Shown piece after piece: positions 32,566 to 37,070 of a stretch of DNA of 64,000 nucleotides. The stretch's first letter is position 1. Each line of letters begins with the position of its first letter. The position numbers and the translations under genes are program-made. The notes below the pieces were generated by a model that saw only the letters and a program-made list of their open reading frames with translations, ran no database searches and was not told the DNA's origin. This DNA comes from an uncultured Pseudohongiella sp. (GTDB lineage: Bacteria; Pseudomonadota; Gammaproteobacteria; Pseudomonadales; Pseudohongiellaceae): the NCBI GenBank assembly GCA_964343795.1, contig CAYFKD010000003.1, forward strand, positions 260,669 to 324,668, given 5' to 3'.

Positions 32566-32642
32566 GCGCCCGTAGCTCAGCTGGATAGAGTAACTGGCTT
32601 CGAACCAGTTGGTCGGGAGTTCGAATCTCTCCGGGCGTGCCA
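32566..32642 (+). tRNA. tRNA-Arg (anticodon TCG)
   Basis: Hand-folded 77-nt cloverleaf: acceptor GCGCCCG/CGGGCGT, D arm GCTC/GAGT, anticodon stem ACTGG/CCAGT with loop CTTCGAA, T arm GGGAG-TTCGAAT-CTCTC, G73 and an encoded CCA. Confidence 0.9.
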
Positions 32643-32646
32643 AATG

Positions 32647-32675
32647 AAAAAGGGGAGCCAATGGCTCCCCTTTTT
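32647..32675 (+). terminator. Rho-independent terminator after tRNA-Arg
   Basis: AAAAGGGGAGCC-aa-GGCTCCCCTTTTT. Confidence 0.85.
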
Positions 32676-33069
32676 GTTTGGTATGGCTGGAGAATTGATT
32701 CGAACTCCAAAGTTCGACAAATTGCGTGAGCAATTTGGACGGCCGTAGGCCGCCCCGAAGGGGTGAGGAATTTGCGCCAACGCAAATTCTGAATCAATCT
32801 CTCCGGTGGAAGCCGAAGGCTTCCCGAACGGAGGCAGTGAAATGATCAAAGCCCCACTTAGCTAAGTTACTAGTTTATCAGTGTCCCCTGGATACTAGGC
32901 AGCGCAAGTTTGCCGCAATTTTTCCTAGTGATGTCAAATAATCCTCCAAGCTCTGGCCAGAAGTTATTGATGTAGAGGATAGTAGTTTCCAACGAGCGAA
33001 TAGTCATGTTAATCAAGATGACATGGCTAAAGGAAAAGTTTAGGGAAACTAACTTGGGGGAATGGATCT

Positions 33070-34260
33070 CTATAATTCAAGAAATGCCAGCTGCTTTTTA
33101 TTGAGCCTAGTAATATCTATGCCCGTTTTATTTAGTACATAAGATACAACGGAATCCCTGGTGTCTTTCATCATTTGTGACAACTTCTCAACATTTTCAC
33201 ATTCACTGTAAGTCAAAATGTAACTCTGTACAGTAGACTCGATGCGAGATAAGAATCGGGGGTACGTGATCCCTCTTCGTAGCAGATTATCGAAATCTTT
33301 ATAAGCTAACAGCTTTTCTTTGATTTTATTCGCCTGTGGAGTTGTGACCGTGAGACAATACTTCTTATTCTTTTTTCGCCGGCTAATCCCTTGCCCGAGA
33401 AACTCCGCAGTCTGTTCTGGAGTGTAGATTTTGGTCTTACTTCCATCTCCTAATGCGTGAATTTTTAGTTTCACTGACGCCAATAAGTCGGCACATGTAT
33501 CATGAATCAACTTGCAATCCTCTTCTGTTTTTGCGAAGGCTATTATGTCATCAGCATAGCGAATAATTTCGAACCCAGTAGACAGAAGCTCACTATCGAA
33601 ATCCCAAAGCAACAAATTAGCAAGGTATGGGGACAAAGGCATACCTTGCCTTAGGCCAACTCCATTTCGAATACCCATTGCTCGGATCTTCTTTCTATCT
33701 TCGAAAACACTCTGGTTTACCTCCGTATCAATAACGGCATCGAGAAGAGGGAACAATGACGATACCCTTAACTTCATCCGCAACTGCTCCTTGAGTACCT
33801 CGCGTGGAATCTTGTCGAAGAATGAAGAGATGTCAGCCTTGTAAACCCAGGGGTTATCATGTCGTTTCTTCACTGACGCTTTGAGAGCATCTTTTGCAGA
33901 CTTCCCGCGGATGAATCCATAACTGACAGGATTGTCGAAAGAATATTGACCATTACTTAGGAAGCGATACATTGCTCGTTGCACTAATCTATCGCGGATA
34001 AGAGGGATACAGATTAATCGCTCTGTACCTTCAGGTTTTGGAATAAAAACGGGCGTTAATGGACTGAACGTATAGCTGCCGCACCGGAGTAGCTTAGAGA
34101 TTTCTGAAATTTGAAGTTTCTTTGTTGCTTTAAATTCTGAAAGGGACATTCCACTAGAATCGTGAAATCCACGTACTCGAGTATTCGAGGCCCGGAACAT
34201 TTCCGCCCATTCGAATTCTAGAGAATCAATGGTTGAGAATTTCGAGAAAGCTGATGCCAA
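33070..34260 (-). CDS. Stand-alone reverse transcriptase (RT domain only; defence-associated or unclassified type)
   Basis: The 396-aa protein shows RT motifs 1-7: IPKPEGTERLICIP, RDRLVQRA, YGFIRGKS, KADISSFFDKI, LRQGMPLSPYLANLLL, RYADDIIAF, SKTKI, FLGQGI. The start is TTG, and there is no maturase or endonuclease domain. Confidence 0.85.
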   Translation of the reverse strand: MASAFSKFSTIDSLEFEWAEMFRASNTRVRGFHDSSGMSLSEFKATKKLQISEISKLLRCGSYTFSPLTPVFIPKPEGTERLICIPLIRDRLVQRAMYRFLSNGQYSFDNPVSYGFIRGKSAKDALKASVKKRHDNPWVYKADISSFFDKIPREVLKEQLRMKLRVSSLFPLLDAVIDTEVNQSVFEDRKKIRAMGIRNGVGLRQGMPLSPYLANLLLWDFDSELLSTGFEIIRYADDIIAFAKTEEDCKLIHDTCADLLASVKLKIHALGDGSKTKIYTPEQTAEFLGQGISRRKKNKKYCLTVTTPQANKIKEKLLAYKDFDNLLRRGITYPRFLSRIESTVQSYILTYSECENVEKLSQMMKDTRDSVVSYVLNKTGIDITRLNKKQLAFLEL

Positions 34261-34324
34261 TAGGAGTATTTCCTTTACTCATCGAAGCAACTAAGCCCCA
34301 GTTCGATGAGATTTATTGAACTGG

Positions 34325-34471
34325 CACCAAACGCGAAAACAGTACGCACTTCGTTATTCGCGTGACATCAATGGCGAACTTGCTGTAGCGAGAGCTCTCG
34401 CAATTTGGAACGCGCCAATGTTTAGGCTTTCTCGCAACCCGCGAAACTGCACATTGGTATGCGAAATACAC
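34325..34471. repeat. Direct repeat R, copy A (RT-proximal)
   Basis: Identical base-for-base to 34724-34870 (compared by hand). Confidence 0.95.
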
Positions 34472-34723
34472 GGCGCGATTCCAAATGAGAATGCTTATCA
34501 CTCGTATCAAGCTAAGACCGAAATCTCTCATGGCTAGAAGTACCTTAGGACTAAAGCCGCAGAGCATGGCTACGGTGCGTCGAAATTTGACTACTACCTC
34601 GACGAGCTTGACCAGCCGGCCAGCGCACTCCGATACCGCGGCTCCGCAGTCGATCGCGTGAAAGCCGTTGCCGGCCACCCTTGCTTCTGGGGCGAATGAC
34701 CGGACATCGACGCGTAACAAGAC

Positions 34724-34870
34724 CACCAAACGCGAAAACAGTACGCACTTCGTTATTCGCGTGACATCAATGGCGAACTTGCTGTAGCGAGAGCTCTCGC
34801 AATTTGGAACGCGCCAATGTTTAGGCTTTCTCGCAACCCGCGAAACTGCACATTGGTATGCGAAATACAC
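34724..34870. repeat. Direct repeat R, copy B (RT-distal)
   Basis: 147-bp perfect copy. The offset is 399 bp, which equals 133 codons. Confidence 0.95.
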
Positions 34871-34878
34871 CGACAATC

Positions 34879-34909
34879 ATTATGTAAGGCCTGGCCTAAA
34901 GATTTTCAA
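34879..34909 (-). promoter_or_regulatory. Putative sigma70 promoter driving the R-U-R RNA and the RT gene
   Basis: On the minus strand the sequence reads TTGAAA, 19 nt, CATAAT. The predicted start near 34872 is about 2 nt upstream of repeat B. Confidence 0.3.
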
Positions 34910-35088
34910 GGGTTTCTAACTATTCGAATGACTACATAGGATTGTTGGTCAATTATCGACCAGCCGTCAAGAACAGGAGTTCACGGCTAATGGCGACGAG
35001 AATTTTTCTGAAGTTTGGATAGTGTAGTAGCAGTTGTACTCAGCCCAACTCGATGTAGGCAATTTTGACTCAATTCTAGATTTAACCA

Positions 35089-35170
35089 AGGTCGCAAGTC
35101 ATTGATATCTATATAACTGCAATTTTTTAGAGCGAGATTCGAATCTTAGCAACCGAGATTGGACGGCCGT
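35089..35170. repeat. Internal module junction: degenerate right-end plus tRNA T-arm remnant plus left-end motif
   Basis: GGTCGCAAGTCATTGATATCTATATAACTGCAATTTT resembles 36946-36987. GAGATTCGAATCT is a T-arm remnant. AGCAACCGAGATTGGACGGCCGT resembles 32729-32746. Confidence 0.65.
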
Positions 35171-35521
35171 TCAATATTCGAATGGTTTCAGTGAATTGCA
35201 GTGGAAGCTGAAAAGCACTGATTCAAAATCTAGTAGAAAATATTTCTAGAAGGCTATGCAGGGGTCTAAAAAGATAAGTCGTGGCCAAGCTGGCCAAGAA
35301 GGATTATCGCTTAGAAGCAAGTATTCACATTCCTTTAGAATCCGGAAAATCTCTAGTTGGGATTTTTCCGAAAGATGCGCCTTGCCCACTAAAATAGTGG
35401 GAATTGTCCTACATACACGAGTTTCGTGGGGGTGTAATGTTCGTCTCCTTGGTGGTTGATTCCAAGATATTTATGGGTCCGCGAGAATCTTGTTTAGACT
35501 GGACGATTAAGGAGAACTCAA

Positions 35522-36127
35522 TTGAATTATAGAAGATGGCTTACATCAGTATTTGCTCTATTAGCATTTATAAATCCTACAATTAGCTTCGCACAGTGCT
35601 CGGTAAATCCATTGTCGTGGTTATGGTGGTCAAATCTAGGGGATGCAGAAGATCTAACTTCTGGCCCGGGCTCTTACCCTCAAACCTATACCTACTGGAT
35701 ACAATCGGGGGCAACCACATACTTAAATACGGACCTGGATGCTGGTTTAGGGCCTAATGGAGAAGGCGAAGTTACTTTCTTCAACACTGCAATGGGGCAG
35801 AATGGACCATTTGGATCGACAGAAGCTTGGTCCACTAGTGAAACGTGCCATGTCTGGATAGGTGGAAGAACCTACGATTCGGGGAATTGTAATACTACTA
35901 CCCAACGACCGATAAAAGGTCAGATTAGGTTAAATGATTCAATTCTTGCGAATCCATCATACATAGCTCTTGGGGCTCCTATGACAACGATTCAACATGA
36001 AACAGGGCACATATTCGGAATGGGACATAATGATTCCTGCACTTCATTTATGAAAACGAGCTTCGTGGCTGGATTGCCTTCAAGTTTGCAATTCTGGGAA
36101 GTTATTTGGATTAATGCAAATTATTAA
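35522..36127 (+). CDS. Secreted metzincin-like zinc metalloprotease
   Basis: Signal peptide and the HETGHIFGMGH motif (HExxHxxGxxH), with a downstream Met (SFM). The start is TTG after AAGGAG. Confidence 0.65.
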   Translation: MNYRRWLTSVFALLAFINPTISFAQCSVNPLSWLWWSNLGDAEDLTSGPGSYPQTYTYWIQSGATTYLNTDLDAGLGPNGEGEVTFFNTAMGQNGPFGSTEAWSTSETCHVWIGGRTYDSGNCNTTTQRPIKGQIRLNDSILANPSYIALGAPMTTIQHETGHIFGMGHNDSCTSFMKTSFVAGLPSSLQFWEVIWINANY

Positions 36128-36152
36128 TACTCAAATAAATAAGGGGAGAATT

Positions 36153-36812
36153 ATGAAATCATATATTTTCGTGCTAGTTCTACTGGTGCCTTTAGGGGCC
36201 GAAGTAAATCCTCTATATGCTCAAGGCATATCAGCTGACCAATTCATTTACTACATGGATTATTCAGCAGAAAACGGATGGATACCGGAGAGTATAGAAA
36301 CTATGGTGTCTACATCTCATATTATTGTGAAAGGCAGATTTGGCAATTTGATTAGTAATCAACCCTTTTGGGGTTATGGCGAATCTCGCGAGTCTTTTAT
36401 AGAAAAGTTAAATATATCGGATGAAGAAGCTGATCGCATGGCTATTCCTTTGAGTGAGTATGAAATAGTTATTGACGAGGTAGTTTTTGGAGACATTAAA
36501 TCCGATAAAATTGTCTACAGAGTCTTTGAGAGCTACCCTTCAGAAGAAGAAGAGCTTGATCAAAAGAAGTCTATTGAAAGACTTTTTTTCCTCAGACTGA
36601 ATGAGGATGGAGAAACATACTCGAGTATTGGGCAACCGTTTATTTTGGACAATATAGACGGTGAGTATAGCTTTTTAGCTCGTGGAAGATCGATAACTGA
36701 TACTTCTAGAAAGACTTTGCCATTTGTTGAAAGTATGCAGAAAGTCGCTTTTGAGCAGGCAATAAAACAAGAGGTTGCGAGACAAATGGCAGAAATCGGG
36801 CGAGCAAATTAA
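36153..36812 (+). CDS. Hypothetical secreted protein (partner of the metzincin)
   Basis: I take the start at MKSYIFVLVLL after AAGGGGAG. There is a signal peptide but no family I recognise. Confidence 0.6.
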   Translation: MKSYIFVLVLLVPLGAEVNPLYAQGISADQFIYYMDYSAENGWIPESIETMVSTSHIIVKGRFGNLISNQPFWGYGESRESFIEKLNISDEEADRMAIPLSEYEIVIDEVVFGDIKSDKIVYRVFESYPSEEEELDQKKSIERLFFLRLNEDGETYSSIGQPFILDNIDGEYSFLARGRSITDTSRKTLPFVESMQKVAFEQAIKQEVARQMAEIGRAN

Positions 36813-36992: not shown

Positions 36993-37070
36993 CTTCGAAC
37001 CAGTTGATCGGGAATTCGAATGTCTCCGGGCGTGCGAAACAAAAAGGGGAGCCAATGGCTCCCCTTTTTT
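36993..37070 (+). repeat. attR-like displaced 3' half of tRNA-Arg plus terminator copy
   Basis: Aligns with 32598-32675 with about five substitutions and one 1-nt indel, and it lacks CCA. Confidence 0.85.

What the first reader, a model, noticed from the sequence alone, without database searches (positions are those of the whole stretch)
33070..34260. Orphan RT-only gene with no effector partner, not a canonical retron or group II intron RT
The 396-aa protein has all the palm and finger motifs (IPKPEG..R, DRLVQRA, FFDKI, QGMPLSPYL, YADD, KTKI, FLGQGI), followed by a helical tail of about 110 aa that I do not recognise. Motif 7 is the generic FLG, not the retron-type VTG. There is no maturase/X domain, no HNH endonuclease domain and no fused nitrilase, protease or primase domain. 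No second protein gene is co-oriented with it in the module. The start codon is TTG. This RT-plus-ncRNA-only architecture resembles the stand-alone DRT classes, but I cannot assign it to one from memory.
Basis: partly seen in the sequence, partly recalled or inferred. Interest (0 to 1): 0.6.

Follow-up and report, generated by a model that had tools for sequence, protein, structure and literature searches.

The report
G2L4-like reverse transcriptase with repeat cassette

Summary
The ORF at 33070-34260 (-) is real. It is 396 aa, starts at TTG, and all the quoted motifs are present.

- The "unrecognised helical tail" is the thumb/X domain of a group II intron RT fold (AF2 pLDDT 95; TM 0.80 to GsI-IIC RT, 0.78 to G2L4 RT).
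- The gene is not an orphan. In about 80% of 76 related loci it follows a near-perfect direct repeat pair (R-U-R). In the window this is 147 + 252 + 147 nt.

The same architecture was published for G2L4 RTs as "long direct repeats" (Park et al. 2022).

The RT belongs to a separate YADD clade (support 100/99.9). This clade is distinct from mobile group II intron RTs, RT-Cas1, retrons, DGRs and UG17/DRT10. G2L4 is its best-tree sister, with weak support.

The new part is this. In the YADD clade the repeat period is a multiple of 3 in 57 of 63 loci. A sense-strand frame is stop-free around the unit in 59 of 61. That frame carries an SD-ATG and a membrane-helix-like segment in permuted order. True YIDD G2L4 cassettes lack these features.

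My preferred model is inferred, not shown: the RT copies its terminally redundant leader RNA head to tail.

The scan has met G2L4 cassettes before, on other DNA.

The parts
33070..34260 (-). Reverse transcriptase gene. 396 aa, TTG start, YADD active site, fingers-palm-thumb/X with no endonuclease domain.
   Evidence: It is a family member by profile: members score at least 360 bits and outgroups at most 180 bits.
34271..34275 (-). Shine-Dalgarno-like AAGGA, 10 nt upstream of the TTG start of the RT.
   Evidence: Read directly.
34278..34310 (-). Leader hairpin between the proximal repeat and the RT start: CTCATCGAA, a 15-nt loop with GGGG, then TTCGATGAG.
   Evidence: RNAalifold on 20 gamma/beta loci gives 7 pairs, each with compensatory double changes in 1-5 sequences.
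34313..34876 (-). Co-oriented open frame of 187 codons. It coincides almost exactly with the repeat unit: a TGA lies 2 codons before the distal repeat and a TAA 3 codons after the proximal repeat.
   Evidence: The same close fit of the frame to R-U-R is seen in related loci. A gene caller called this frame on metagenome contig L172.
34325..34471 (-). Proximal long direct repeat (Rp), 147 nt.
   Evidence: 100% identical to the distal copy, period 399 = 3 x 133.
34410..34413 (-). "J site" in Rp. The window reads GCGT. Two otherwise identical metagenome contigs read AAAG.
   Evidence: The same patch is the main distal/proximal difference in other loci.
34472..34723 (-). Unique spacer (U), 252 nt. 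It holds an in-frame ATG at 34531-34529 with a weak AAGG 11 nt upstream, and a hydrophobic stretch.
   Evidence: In other beta/gamma loci a clear SD+ATG lies mostly 37-47 nt before Rp.
34724..34870 (-). Distal long direct repeat (Rd), 147 nt.
34941..34970 (-). Weak sigma-70-like site (TTGACG-18-AACAAT) about 70 nt upstream of Rd. It is a possible cassette promoter.
   Evidence: The number of such sites in the region is not above chance, so this is a lead only.

Best explanation
**Shown**
- The gene encodes an intact, probably active, free-standing group II intron-like RT. It has YADD, all palm and finger motifs, and a thumb/X domain. It has no endonuclease domain and no intron RNA.
- It belongs to a large proteobacterial YADD clade whose nearest relative in the best tree is the G2L4 family.
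- It is the downstream half of a conserved, self-contained cassette: distal repeat, spacer, proximal repeat, leader hairpin, RT. This is the architecture published as "long direct repeats" for G2L4.
- In this clade the repeat unit is a whole number of codons and is stop-free on the RT-sense strand when read around the unit.
- That frame shows mild purifying selection. It contains an SD-ATG and a membrane-helix-like segment.
- In the beta/gamma branch, which includes the window, the helix-like segment lies upstream of the start codon. The coding sequence is therefore circularly permuted in the genome.

**Inferred model (about 0.35-0.4 on its own)**
1. The cassette is transcribed as one RNA.
2. 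The RT binds its own leader and reverse-transcribes the terminally redundant R-U-R RNA.
3. The cDNA end made on one R copy re-anneals on the other copy. This resembles retroviral strong-stop transfer and the programmed template jump of DRT2.
4. The result is head-to-tail or circular DNA copies of the 399-nt unit.
5. Only on such copies is the permuted frame continuous. It then yields a repetitive small membrane protein that would act as the effector, in phage defence or a stress response.

The classification part alone I hold at about 0.9.
For: **Fold and sequence**
- AF2 pLDDT is 95. Foldseek gives TM 0.80 to GsI-IIC RT and 0.78 to G2L4 RT over the whole length.
- TIGR04416 aligns across residues 36-377 at 176.8 bits, below the 300-bit cut-off.

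**Clade**
- The family clade has support 100/99.9. It is separate from 21 canonical group II RTs (99/97), G2L4 (100/100) and RT-Cas1.
- It shares with G2L4 a longer RT3a segment and the thumb motif Y-S-x-C-x-N.

**Cassette**
- A near-perfect direct repeat occurs in 63 of 76 testable loci.
- The period is 3n in 57 of 63 loci, across 24 distinct period lengths.
- A circularly stop-free sense frame occurs in 59 of 61 loci, against 15 of 61 on the antisense strand.
- The open frame ends just outside R-U-R.
- An SD+ATG lies in frame about 20 nt after Rd in alpha loci and mostly 37-47 nt before Rp in beta/gamma loci.
- pN/pS is 0.3-0.6 in the open frame for close pairs, against about 0.5-1.6 (mostly near or above 1) in the shifted frames.
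- A TM-like window is present in 44 of 56 unit peptides, with mean hydropathy 1.81 against 1.16 for shuffles.

**Natural control**
- True YIDD G2L4 cassettes have the repeats, but a 3n period in only 5 of 20 and a stop-free unit in 1 of 20.

**Other**
- No conserved protein neighbour in 67 loci.
- Leader hairpin with compensatory changes.
- Literature: LDRs precede about 70% of G2L4 RTs. RT-sense RNA depth is 20-fold higher over them, and they modulate the RT phenotype (Park et al. 2022).
- YADD favours primer extension over the strand annealing favoured by YIDD.
Against: - No cDNA, concatemer or circular product has been observed.
- In the alpha branch the SD-ATG follows Rd directly. A complete protein of about 100 aa with its hydrophobic segment is then already encoded linearly, so head-to-tail copying is not needed there.
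- In the window itself no good SD precedes an in-frame start. The hydrophobic window is also not above shuffles (1.75 against 1.91).
- The protein-level constraint is weak, and it is invisible in divergent pairs.
- The single R copy does not fold better than shuffles (z = -1.2).
- No promoter-like site lies inside the unit.
- The only characterised relative, G2L4, works in double-strand-break repair without needing the repeats.
- An earlier scan note on a G2L4 leader judged it "not a DRT2-style template" (e1-2869459).
- The sister relation to G2L4 has only 60/58 support. A grouping with group II RTs is not rejected (AU p = 0.24).
Confidence: 0.55

Rival explanations
1. The RT is a DNA-repair polymerase like G2L4, acting in microhomology-mediated end joining and translesion synthesis. 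On this reading the repeat cassette is only a structured leader, with a small leader ORF that tunes RT expression. For example, a ribosome stopping at 34313 next to the leader hairpin could couple translation to the RT start.
For: - G2L4 is the nearest characterised relative. It has the same fold and the same cassette layout.
- Park et al. showed DNA-repair phenotypes for the RT alone. The LDRs only modulated them.
- The open frame stops 3 nt before the conserved hairpin that precedes the RT ribosome-binding site.
- Earlier scan notes read the G2L4 leader as a control cassette (e1-3974500, e1-2869459).
Against: - The residue said to adapt G2L4 for strand annealing (YIDD) is YADD here in at least 90% of the family.
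- A regulatory leader does not explain three features: the 3n period, the stop-free frame through untranslated Rd and the 5' part of U, and the hydrophobic segment upstream of the start codon in beta/gamma loci. These features are absent from true G2L4 cassettes.
Confidence: 0.27
2. The cassette is a small mobile retroelement, with the repeats serving as its ends or processing sites. One version resembles a retrozyme or pararetrovirus: a transcript longer than one unit gives a unit-length circular RNA or DNA that the RT copies and that reinserts elsewhere.
For: - The cassette sits in unrelated genomic contexts.
- In the window it lies in a low-GC islet next to tRNA-Arg. The islet interior is missing from all 40 relatives searched, 24 of them in the same genus.
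- Park et al. noted nearby integrases and suggested an independently mobile element.
- A terminally redundant RNA is what pararetroviruses use.
Against: - There is a single copy in this genome and mostly one per genome elsewhere.
- The repeats flank only the 252-nt spacer, not the RT gene, so the RT would not travel with the unit.
- No known ribozyme was found.
- No target-site duplications were looked for or seen.
- Mobility of the islet by other means explains the patchy distribution equally well.
Confidence: 0.1
3. It is a decaying remnant of a mobile group II intron, or a member of a described stand-alone defence RT class (UG17/DRT10, DRT2, DRT9, retron, DGR, CRISPR-associated).
For: - Source annotations call relatives "group II intron reverse transcriptase/maturase".
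- The best PADLOC hits are a generic RT model, RT_UG17 and RT-Cas1.
Against: - TIGR04416 scores 176.8 bits against a 300-bit cut-off, while canonical intron RTs score 300-428.
- There is no domain V/VI RNA.
- The family holds at least 150 clusters at 50% identity with full-length conservation. That is not decay.
- The UG17 score of about 130 bits is also reached by G2L4-type RTs and exceeded (181.7 bits) by another, unclassified YADD RT. DRT10 needs a SLATT partner, 7-9 nt repeats and YVDD.
- Drt2 scores 47 bits against a 390-bit cut-off, and retron St85 scores 70.7 against 235.
- No cas genes or arrays lie nearby.
- The repeat copies do not differ in a DGR-like way.
Confidence: 0.05

Closest known systems
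G2L4 (group II intron-like 4) reverse transcriptase of Pseudomonas aeruginosa with its upstream long direct repeats (Park, Mohr, Yao, Russell & Lambowitz 2022, bioRxiv 10.1101/2022.03.14.484287; PDB 9d4s/9d5x)
   Same: - It is a free-standing RT of about 400 aa with the group II RT fold and thumb, no intron RNA and no endonuclease domain.
- It lies on horizontally acquired, low-GC DNA.
- It is preceded by two direct repeats of about 140 bp separated by about 240 bp. The window has 147/252/147.
- It shares the lengthened RT3a segment and the thumb motif Y-S-x-C-x-N.
- It is the best-tree sister.
   Different: - The active site is YADD, not the defining YIDD.
- QGMPLSP replaces QG(C/S)CLSP.
- It forms a separate clade, and the sister link has only 60/58 support.
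- Its repeat unit is 3n long and stop-free with an SD-ATG. G2L4 units are mostly 3n+1 and carry stops.
- No functional data exist for this clade.
DRT2 / Neo (Tang et al. 2024, PMC11100668; Wilkinson et al. 2024, PMC12039810)
   Same: - An RT lies next to an upstream RNA element.
- The element's template unit is a whole number of codons.
- A frame is continuous only across head-to-tail copies.
- The effector would be a protein absent from the linear genome annotation.
   Different: - The RT lineage is unrelated (UG2, class 2 UG/Abi). The Drt2 model scores 47 bits against a 390-bit cut-off.
- The DRT2 template is 120 nt and present once, and the jump is set by RNA structure and ACA motifs. Here the unit is 273-420 nt with 55-223 nt (mostly about 95-150 nt) of terminal redundancy written in the genome.
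- neo is antisense to the ncRNA, whereas the frame here is RT-sense.
- Nothing has been shown experimentally here.
Mobile group II intron RTs (e.g. GsI-IIC RT, PDB 6ar1/7k9y)
   Same: - Best structural match (TM 0.80).
- Same motif set, including YADD.
- NTE/RT0, RT2a and RT3a insertions and the thumb/X domain are present.
   Different: - No intron RNA.
- Single copy.
- Below the curated family cut-off.
- Falls outside the intron RT clade (99/97).
- RT3a is longer.
UG17 / DRT10 (PMC12632851; bioRxiv 10.64898/2026.04.29.721553)
   Same: - The second-best PADLOC hit is the UG17 model.
- An RT is paired with an upstream RNA.
- The product is repetitive DNA.
   Different: - DRT10 is tripartite with a SLATT protein, a 137-nt ncRNA, 7-9 nt repeats and YVDD. 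None of these is present here.
- The HMM hit is non-specific.

Membership tests
G2L4 RT | Free-standing group II intron-like RT without intron RNA or endonuclease domain | tested here: met
   - Pfam finds RVT_1 only.
- No Rfam intron hit at E<=1.
- Fold match to G2L4 at TM 0.78.
G2L4 RT | YIDD at the active site (named as the distinguishing conserved feature) | tested here: not met
   - The window has YADD at residues 235-238.
- Alanine is kept in at least 90% of 100 family members.
- G2L4 rows have YIDD or YLDD.
G2L4 RT | Two upstream long direct repeats of about 140 bp with a spacer of about 240 bp | tested here: met
   - The window has 147/252/147.
- The repeat pair is present in 63 of 76 family loci.
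- Published description.
G2L4 RT | Placement inside the G2L4 clade | tested here: not met
   - G2L4 is monophyletic without this family (100/100).
- The family is its sister in the best tree only (60/58).
G2L4 RT | Lengthened RT3a (9-aa insertion that plugs the active site) | tested here: inconclusive
   In the alignment RT3a is 7-11 aa longer than in intron RTs. The R190/R191-type contacts were not examined in the model.
G2L4 RT | [quoted passage not shown] | not testable with these tools
   This needs survival and biochemical assays.
Mobile group II intron RT/maturase | Score over the curated cut-off of TIGR04416, and an intron ribozyme (domains V/VI) around the ORF | tested here: not met
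   - 176.8 bits against a 300-bit cut-off. Canonical RTs in 200 genomes score 300-428.
- No RF00029-type hit.
- Single copy.
Retron RT | VTG in motif 7, retron RT model score, msr/msd with flanking inverted repeats | tested here: not met
   - FLG in place of VTG.
- NF038233 scores 70.7 bits against 235.
- The upstream repeats are direct, not inverted.
DGR | TR/VR pair differing at adenines, target gene with VR at its 3' end, Avd | tested here: not met
   - The copies are identical in the window.
- In relatives they differ at one 2-4 nt patch where non-A positions change too.
- There is no target gene and no Avd.
UG17 / DRT10 | SLATT partner, about 137-nt ncRNA, 7-9 nt tandem-repeat product, YVDD | tested here: not met
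   - No conserved protein neighbour.
- The active site is YADD.
- The 131-bit HMM hit is also reached by G2L4-type RTs and exceeded (181.7 bits) by another, unclassified YADD RT.
- Features taken.
DRT2 | Drt2 RT model over cut-off; single-copy template with an antisense endless frame | tested here: not met
   - NF041746 scores 47 bits against 390.
- The open frame here is RT-sense. neo is antisense.
CRISPR-associated RT | Fusion to or adjacency with cas1 or cas6 and a CRISPR array | tested here: not met
   - No Cas domain in the protein or in its neighbours.
- No array-like repeats in 32700-35600.
- RT-Cas1 proteins form a separate clade.

The most novel reading that the evidence does not exclude
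A second, independent lineage of reverse transcriptases builds a gene by copying RNA head to tail. In the YADD sister clade of G2L4, the terminally redundant R-U-R leader RNA would be reverse-transcribed, with strand transfer between the two repeats, into concatemeric or circular DNA. On that DNA a circularly permuted, stop-free, sense-strand frame becomes continuous and produces a repetitive membrane protein as the effector. This would also give a purpose to the unexplained long direct repeats of the G2L4 family. It would imply that these "domesticated repair" RTs are, or descend from, template-copying systems.
Probability: 0.3. Interest if true: 0.9.

Novelty: new variant of a known kind. 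Interest (0 to 1): 0.62.

Why it matters
G2L4 is the only characterised free-standing group II intron-like RT. Its conserved upstream repeats have remained unexplained since 2022.

This window belongs to a large sister clade, with at least 150 clusters at 50% identity in Alpha-, Beta- and Gammaproteobacteria. The clade keeps the ordinary polymerase motif YADD. Its repeat unit obeys coding rules: a 3n period, a stop-free circle, an SD-ATG and a hydrophobic segment. The G2L4 units do not obey these rules.

This contrast turns a vague "RT plus leader" into a testable hypothesis with clear mutants: frame-breaking against frame-keeping changes in a region that is untranslated in the linear genome. 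If the hypothesis is true, RNA-templated gene assembly is not a peculiarity of DRT2. It would have arisen at least twice, and standard annotation misses the effector.

If it is false, the finding still files a previously unassigned RT correctly. It also shows that the "orphan" label is wrong.

Tried and rejected
- **DGR-like mutagenesis between the repeats.** Rejected. Differences sit in one 2-4 nt patch, non-A positions change, and all other adenines are untouched.
- **UG17/DRT10 membership.** Rejected, because the HMM hit is non-specific.
- **Retron, DRT2, DRT3, DRT4 and AbiA models.** All score far below their cut-offs.
- **A normal 187-aa protein translated from the start of the distal repeat.** Unlikely. 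No SD+start lies at or before Rd in almost any locus.
- **A conserved protein partner.** None was found among 134 flanking ORFs or in the window.
- **Stable fold of a single repeat.** Not above shuffles (z = -1.17). The 646-nt leader as a whole gives z = -4.6, but from only 20 shuffles.
- **Promoter inside the unit.** None found, and the site count is at chance level.
- **Looking up the repeat-frame products in the protein collection.** Not on record.
- **The search for related loci with a single G2L4 protein.** It found only itself. An alignment was needed.
- **The look-up of sequencing runs.** No read-level test could be made for cDNA, concatemers or the J-site state.
- **pN/pS on divergent pairs.** Uninformative because of saturation and frame-guided alignment.
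Full report
**1. The observation**

The minus-strand ORF 33070-34260 exists and encodes 396 aa. Pfam sees only RVT_1, at residues 73-290.

TTG at 34260 is the only canonical start:
- An in-frame TGA lies seven codons upstream (sequence).
- The first 20 residues are conserved in homologues, with W18 nearly invariant.
- An AAGGA lies 10 nt upstream.

The gene and the upstream repeat are single copy in the 3.5-Mb genome.

**2. The "unknown tail" is the thumb/X domain**

- The NCBIfam group II RT/maturase model aligns over residues 36-377, covering nearly its whole length. It scores 176.8 bits, below the 300-bit cut-off.
- An AlphaFold model built on 100 homologues has mean pLDDT 95.
- Foldseek puts the full-length GsI-IIC group II RT first (TM 0.80 over 399 columns) and G2L4 RT second (TM 0.78).

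The protein is therefore a complete fingers-palm-thumb RT of the group II type. It has no endonuclease domain.

**3. Which family**

The profile scores separate it from the described classes:
- Canonical intron RTs from 200 gammaproteobacterial genomes score 300-428 bits on TIGR04416. This one scores 177.
- A profile of its own family scores members at 360 bits or more. Every other RT fetched scores 180 bits or less.

In a careful IQ-TREE of 69 RTs:
- The family is one clade (100/99.9).
- It is separate from intron RTs (99/97), RT-Cas1 (100/99) and G2L4 (100/100).
- G2L4 is its sister in the best tree, with only 60/58 support.
- A grouping with intron RTs is not rejected (AU p = 0.24).

Two shared characters support the G2L4 link:
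- an RT3a segment 7-11 aa longer than in intron RTs;
- the thumb motif Y-S-x-C-x-N (TYSECEN here, QYSFCND in G2L4).

The defining YIDD of G2L4 is YADD here, in at least 90% of the family.

The PADLOC hit to RT_UG17 (131 bits) is not diagnostic. G2L4-type RTs reach it and another, unclassified YADD RT exceeds it at 181.7 bits. UG17/DRT10 also needs a SLATT partner, short 7-9 nt repeats and YVDD. The retron, DRT2, DRT3 and Abi models all score far below their cut-offs.

Reviews state that the G2L lineage holds G2L4, G2L5 and four further clades. This family is probably one of those clades. I could not map it to a number.

**4. It is not an orphan**

Directly upstream of the gene, on the RT strand, lies a 147-nt perfect direct repeat with a 399-nt period: Rd 34724-34870, U 34472-34723, Rp 34325-34471.

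I fetched 80 related loci from Alpha-, Beta- and Gammaproteobacteria, with RTs 31-51% identical to the window's. Of the 76 with enough upstream sequence, 63 have the same layout:
- two copies of 55-223 nt (mostly 95-150 nt), 94-100% identical;
- a period of 273-420 nt;
- a proximal copy ending a constant 50-75 nt before the RT start.

Some repeat-less loci keep a lone R motif at the usual distance.

No protein family recurs among 134 flanking ORFs. The commonest is a type I restriction subunit, in 4 of them. The cassette is therefore self-contained.

I then found that this architecture is published. Park et al. 2022 report that about 70% of G2L4 RT genes are preceded by two "long direct repeats" of about 140 bp, separated by about 240 bp. 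RT-sense RNA depth is 20-fold higher over them, and they modulate RT-dependent survival. G2L4-type loci that I fetched show the repeats too.

**5. What is different in this clade**

- The period is a multiple of three in 57 of 63 loci, across 24 distinct lengths.
- One RT-sense frame has no stop when the unit is read as a circle in 59 of 61 loci. On the antisense strand this holds in 15 of 61.
- The stop-to-stop frame ends within a few codons of the R-U-R borders. In the window a TGA lies 2 codons before Rd and a TAA 3 codons after Rp.
- An in-frame SD+ATG lies about 20 nt after Rd in the alpha branch, and mostly 37-47 nt before Rp in most beta/gamma loci.
- For closely related pairs, pN/pS in the open frame is 0.3-0.6, against about 0.5-1.6 (mostly near or above 1) in the shifted frames. 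Divergent pairs are saturated.
- A 19-residue hydrophobic window (KD at least 1.6) is present in 44 of 56 unit peptides. The mean is 1.81, against 1.16 for shuffled peptides.
- In beta/gamma loci that hydrophobic segment lies upstream of the SD-ATG. It can be translated only if reading continues from R into the next U, that is, on a head-to-tail copy.
- True YIDD G2L4 cassettes serve as a natural control. They have the same repeats, but a 3n period in only 5 of 20 loci (12 of 20 are 3n+1) and a stop-free unit in 1 of 20.

**6. Other anatomy**

- A hairpin between Rp and the RT ribosome-binding site (34310-34278) is kept by compensatory changes in 20 loci.
- The open frame stops 3 nt before this hairpin.
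- The two repeat copies differ, in most loci, mainly at one 2-4 nt patch after a conserved GGC. The proximal copy reads AAC, AAA, AGC or ACA there, and the distal copy is variable.
- In the window both copies read GCGT. Two metagenome contigs of the same strain have AAAG in the proximal copy. They are identical to the window over 4457 and 4011 nt apart from these four bases.
- The window's "perfect" repeat is therefore either a recent gene conversion or an assembly effect.

**7. Context**

- The cassette lies in a low-GC islet next to tRNA-Arg.
- The interior of that islet is missing from all 40 relatives searched, 24 of them in the same genus. Only the islet's terminal short repeats match elsewhere.
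- The neighbours in the window are a small metzincin-like secreted protein, a secreted partner, a DUF3300 protein and a permease. There are no cas or known defence genes.

**8. How it most likely works**

Shown: an intact G2L-type RT, and its obligate pairing with a terminally redundant, coding-like unit.

Inferred:
1. The cassette RNA is the RT's own template.
2. The nascent cDNA transfers between the R copies and gives head-to-tail or circular DNA.
3. On that DNA the permuted frame becomes continuous and encodes a repetitive membrane protein.

This works like DRT2/Neo but is not a member of that family:
- the RT lineage is unrelated;
- the redundancy is written in the genome;
- the frame is sense, whereas neo is antisense.

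The main rival is the published G2L4 role in break repair, with the cassette as a regulatory leader. That rival explains neither the 3n rule nor the permuted hydrophobic segment. Both are missing exactly where the repair role was shown.

Weak points of my model:
- No product has been seen.
- The alpha branch already encodes the whole small protein linearly.
- The window's own unit lacks a clear SD.

**9. Earlier scan notes**

The scan has met G2L4 cassettes on other DNA. Some follow-ups read them as hiding a split gene that becomes whole only on a head-to-tail copy. One rejected a DRT2-style reading. I found the 2022 paper independently before reading those notes, and I treat them as leads. 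My own tests concern the YADD clade and the contrast with YIDD loci.

**10. Verdict**

- The RT is a new variant of a known kind: the G2L lineage, G2L4-like cassette.
- The cassette's coding-like periodicity is the interesting part, and it is directly testable.

Noticed in passing
window 34410-34413 (proximal repeat) vs L172:1495-1641 and L173:251-397: Two metagenome contigs of the same strain are identical to the window over 4457 and 4011 nt, apart from four adjacent bases in the proximal repeat: AAAG where the window has GCGT. This is the same patch that distinguishes distal from proximal copies in other loci. The cause is either a gene conversion or an assembly or polishing effect in the window's genome.
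   Followed up: partly
L130-L163 (YIDD G2L4 loci): The long direct repeats of true G2L4 cassettes have periods that are mostly 3n+1 (343, 337, 340, 370, 355, 427, 454). This holds in 12 of 20 loci, more than chance would give. They carry no stop-free unit.
   Followed up: partly
L165:1553-3265: In the contig of the closest homologue (P0006, 68% identical), the RT gene is followed 270 nt downstream by a second, co-oriented 570-aa RVT_1 protein. Nothing comparable follows the RT in the window.
   Followed up: no
window 32640-32830 and 36993-37069: The two ends of the low-GC islet carry short structured repeats. These occur in many copies in this genome and in genomes of the same genus. The islet interior (RT cassette and metzincin pair) is found in none of the 40 relatives searched.
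   Followed up: partly
window 35522-36127 (+) and 36114-36812 (+): A small secreted protein has a full HExxHxxGxxH zinc motif (HETGHIFGMGH), with only weak Pfam/NCBIfam metalloprotease hits. It is followed by a secreted protein with no family. The pair lies in the same islet and is oriented divergently from the RT cassette.
   Followed up: no
YADD and G2L4 repeats: An invariant GGTTGC (in GC-GGTTGCGC) lies about 35 nt into the repeat of gamma/beta YADD loci. A related motif, G(A/G)GG(T/A)TGC(G/A)C, appears in several G2L4 repeats. This hints that the repeats of the two clades are homologous.
   Followed up: no
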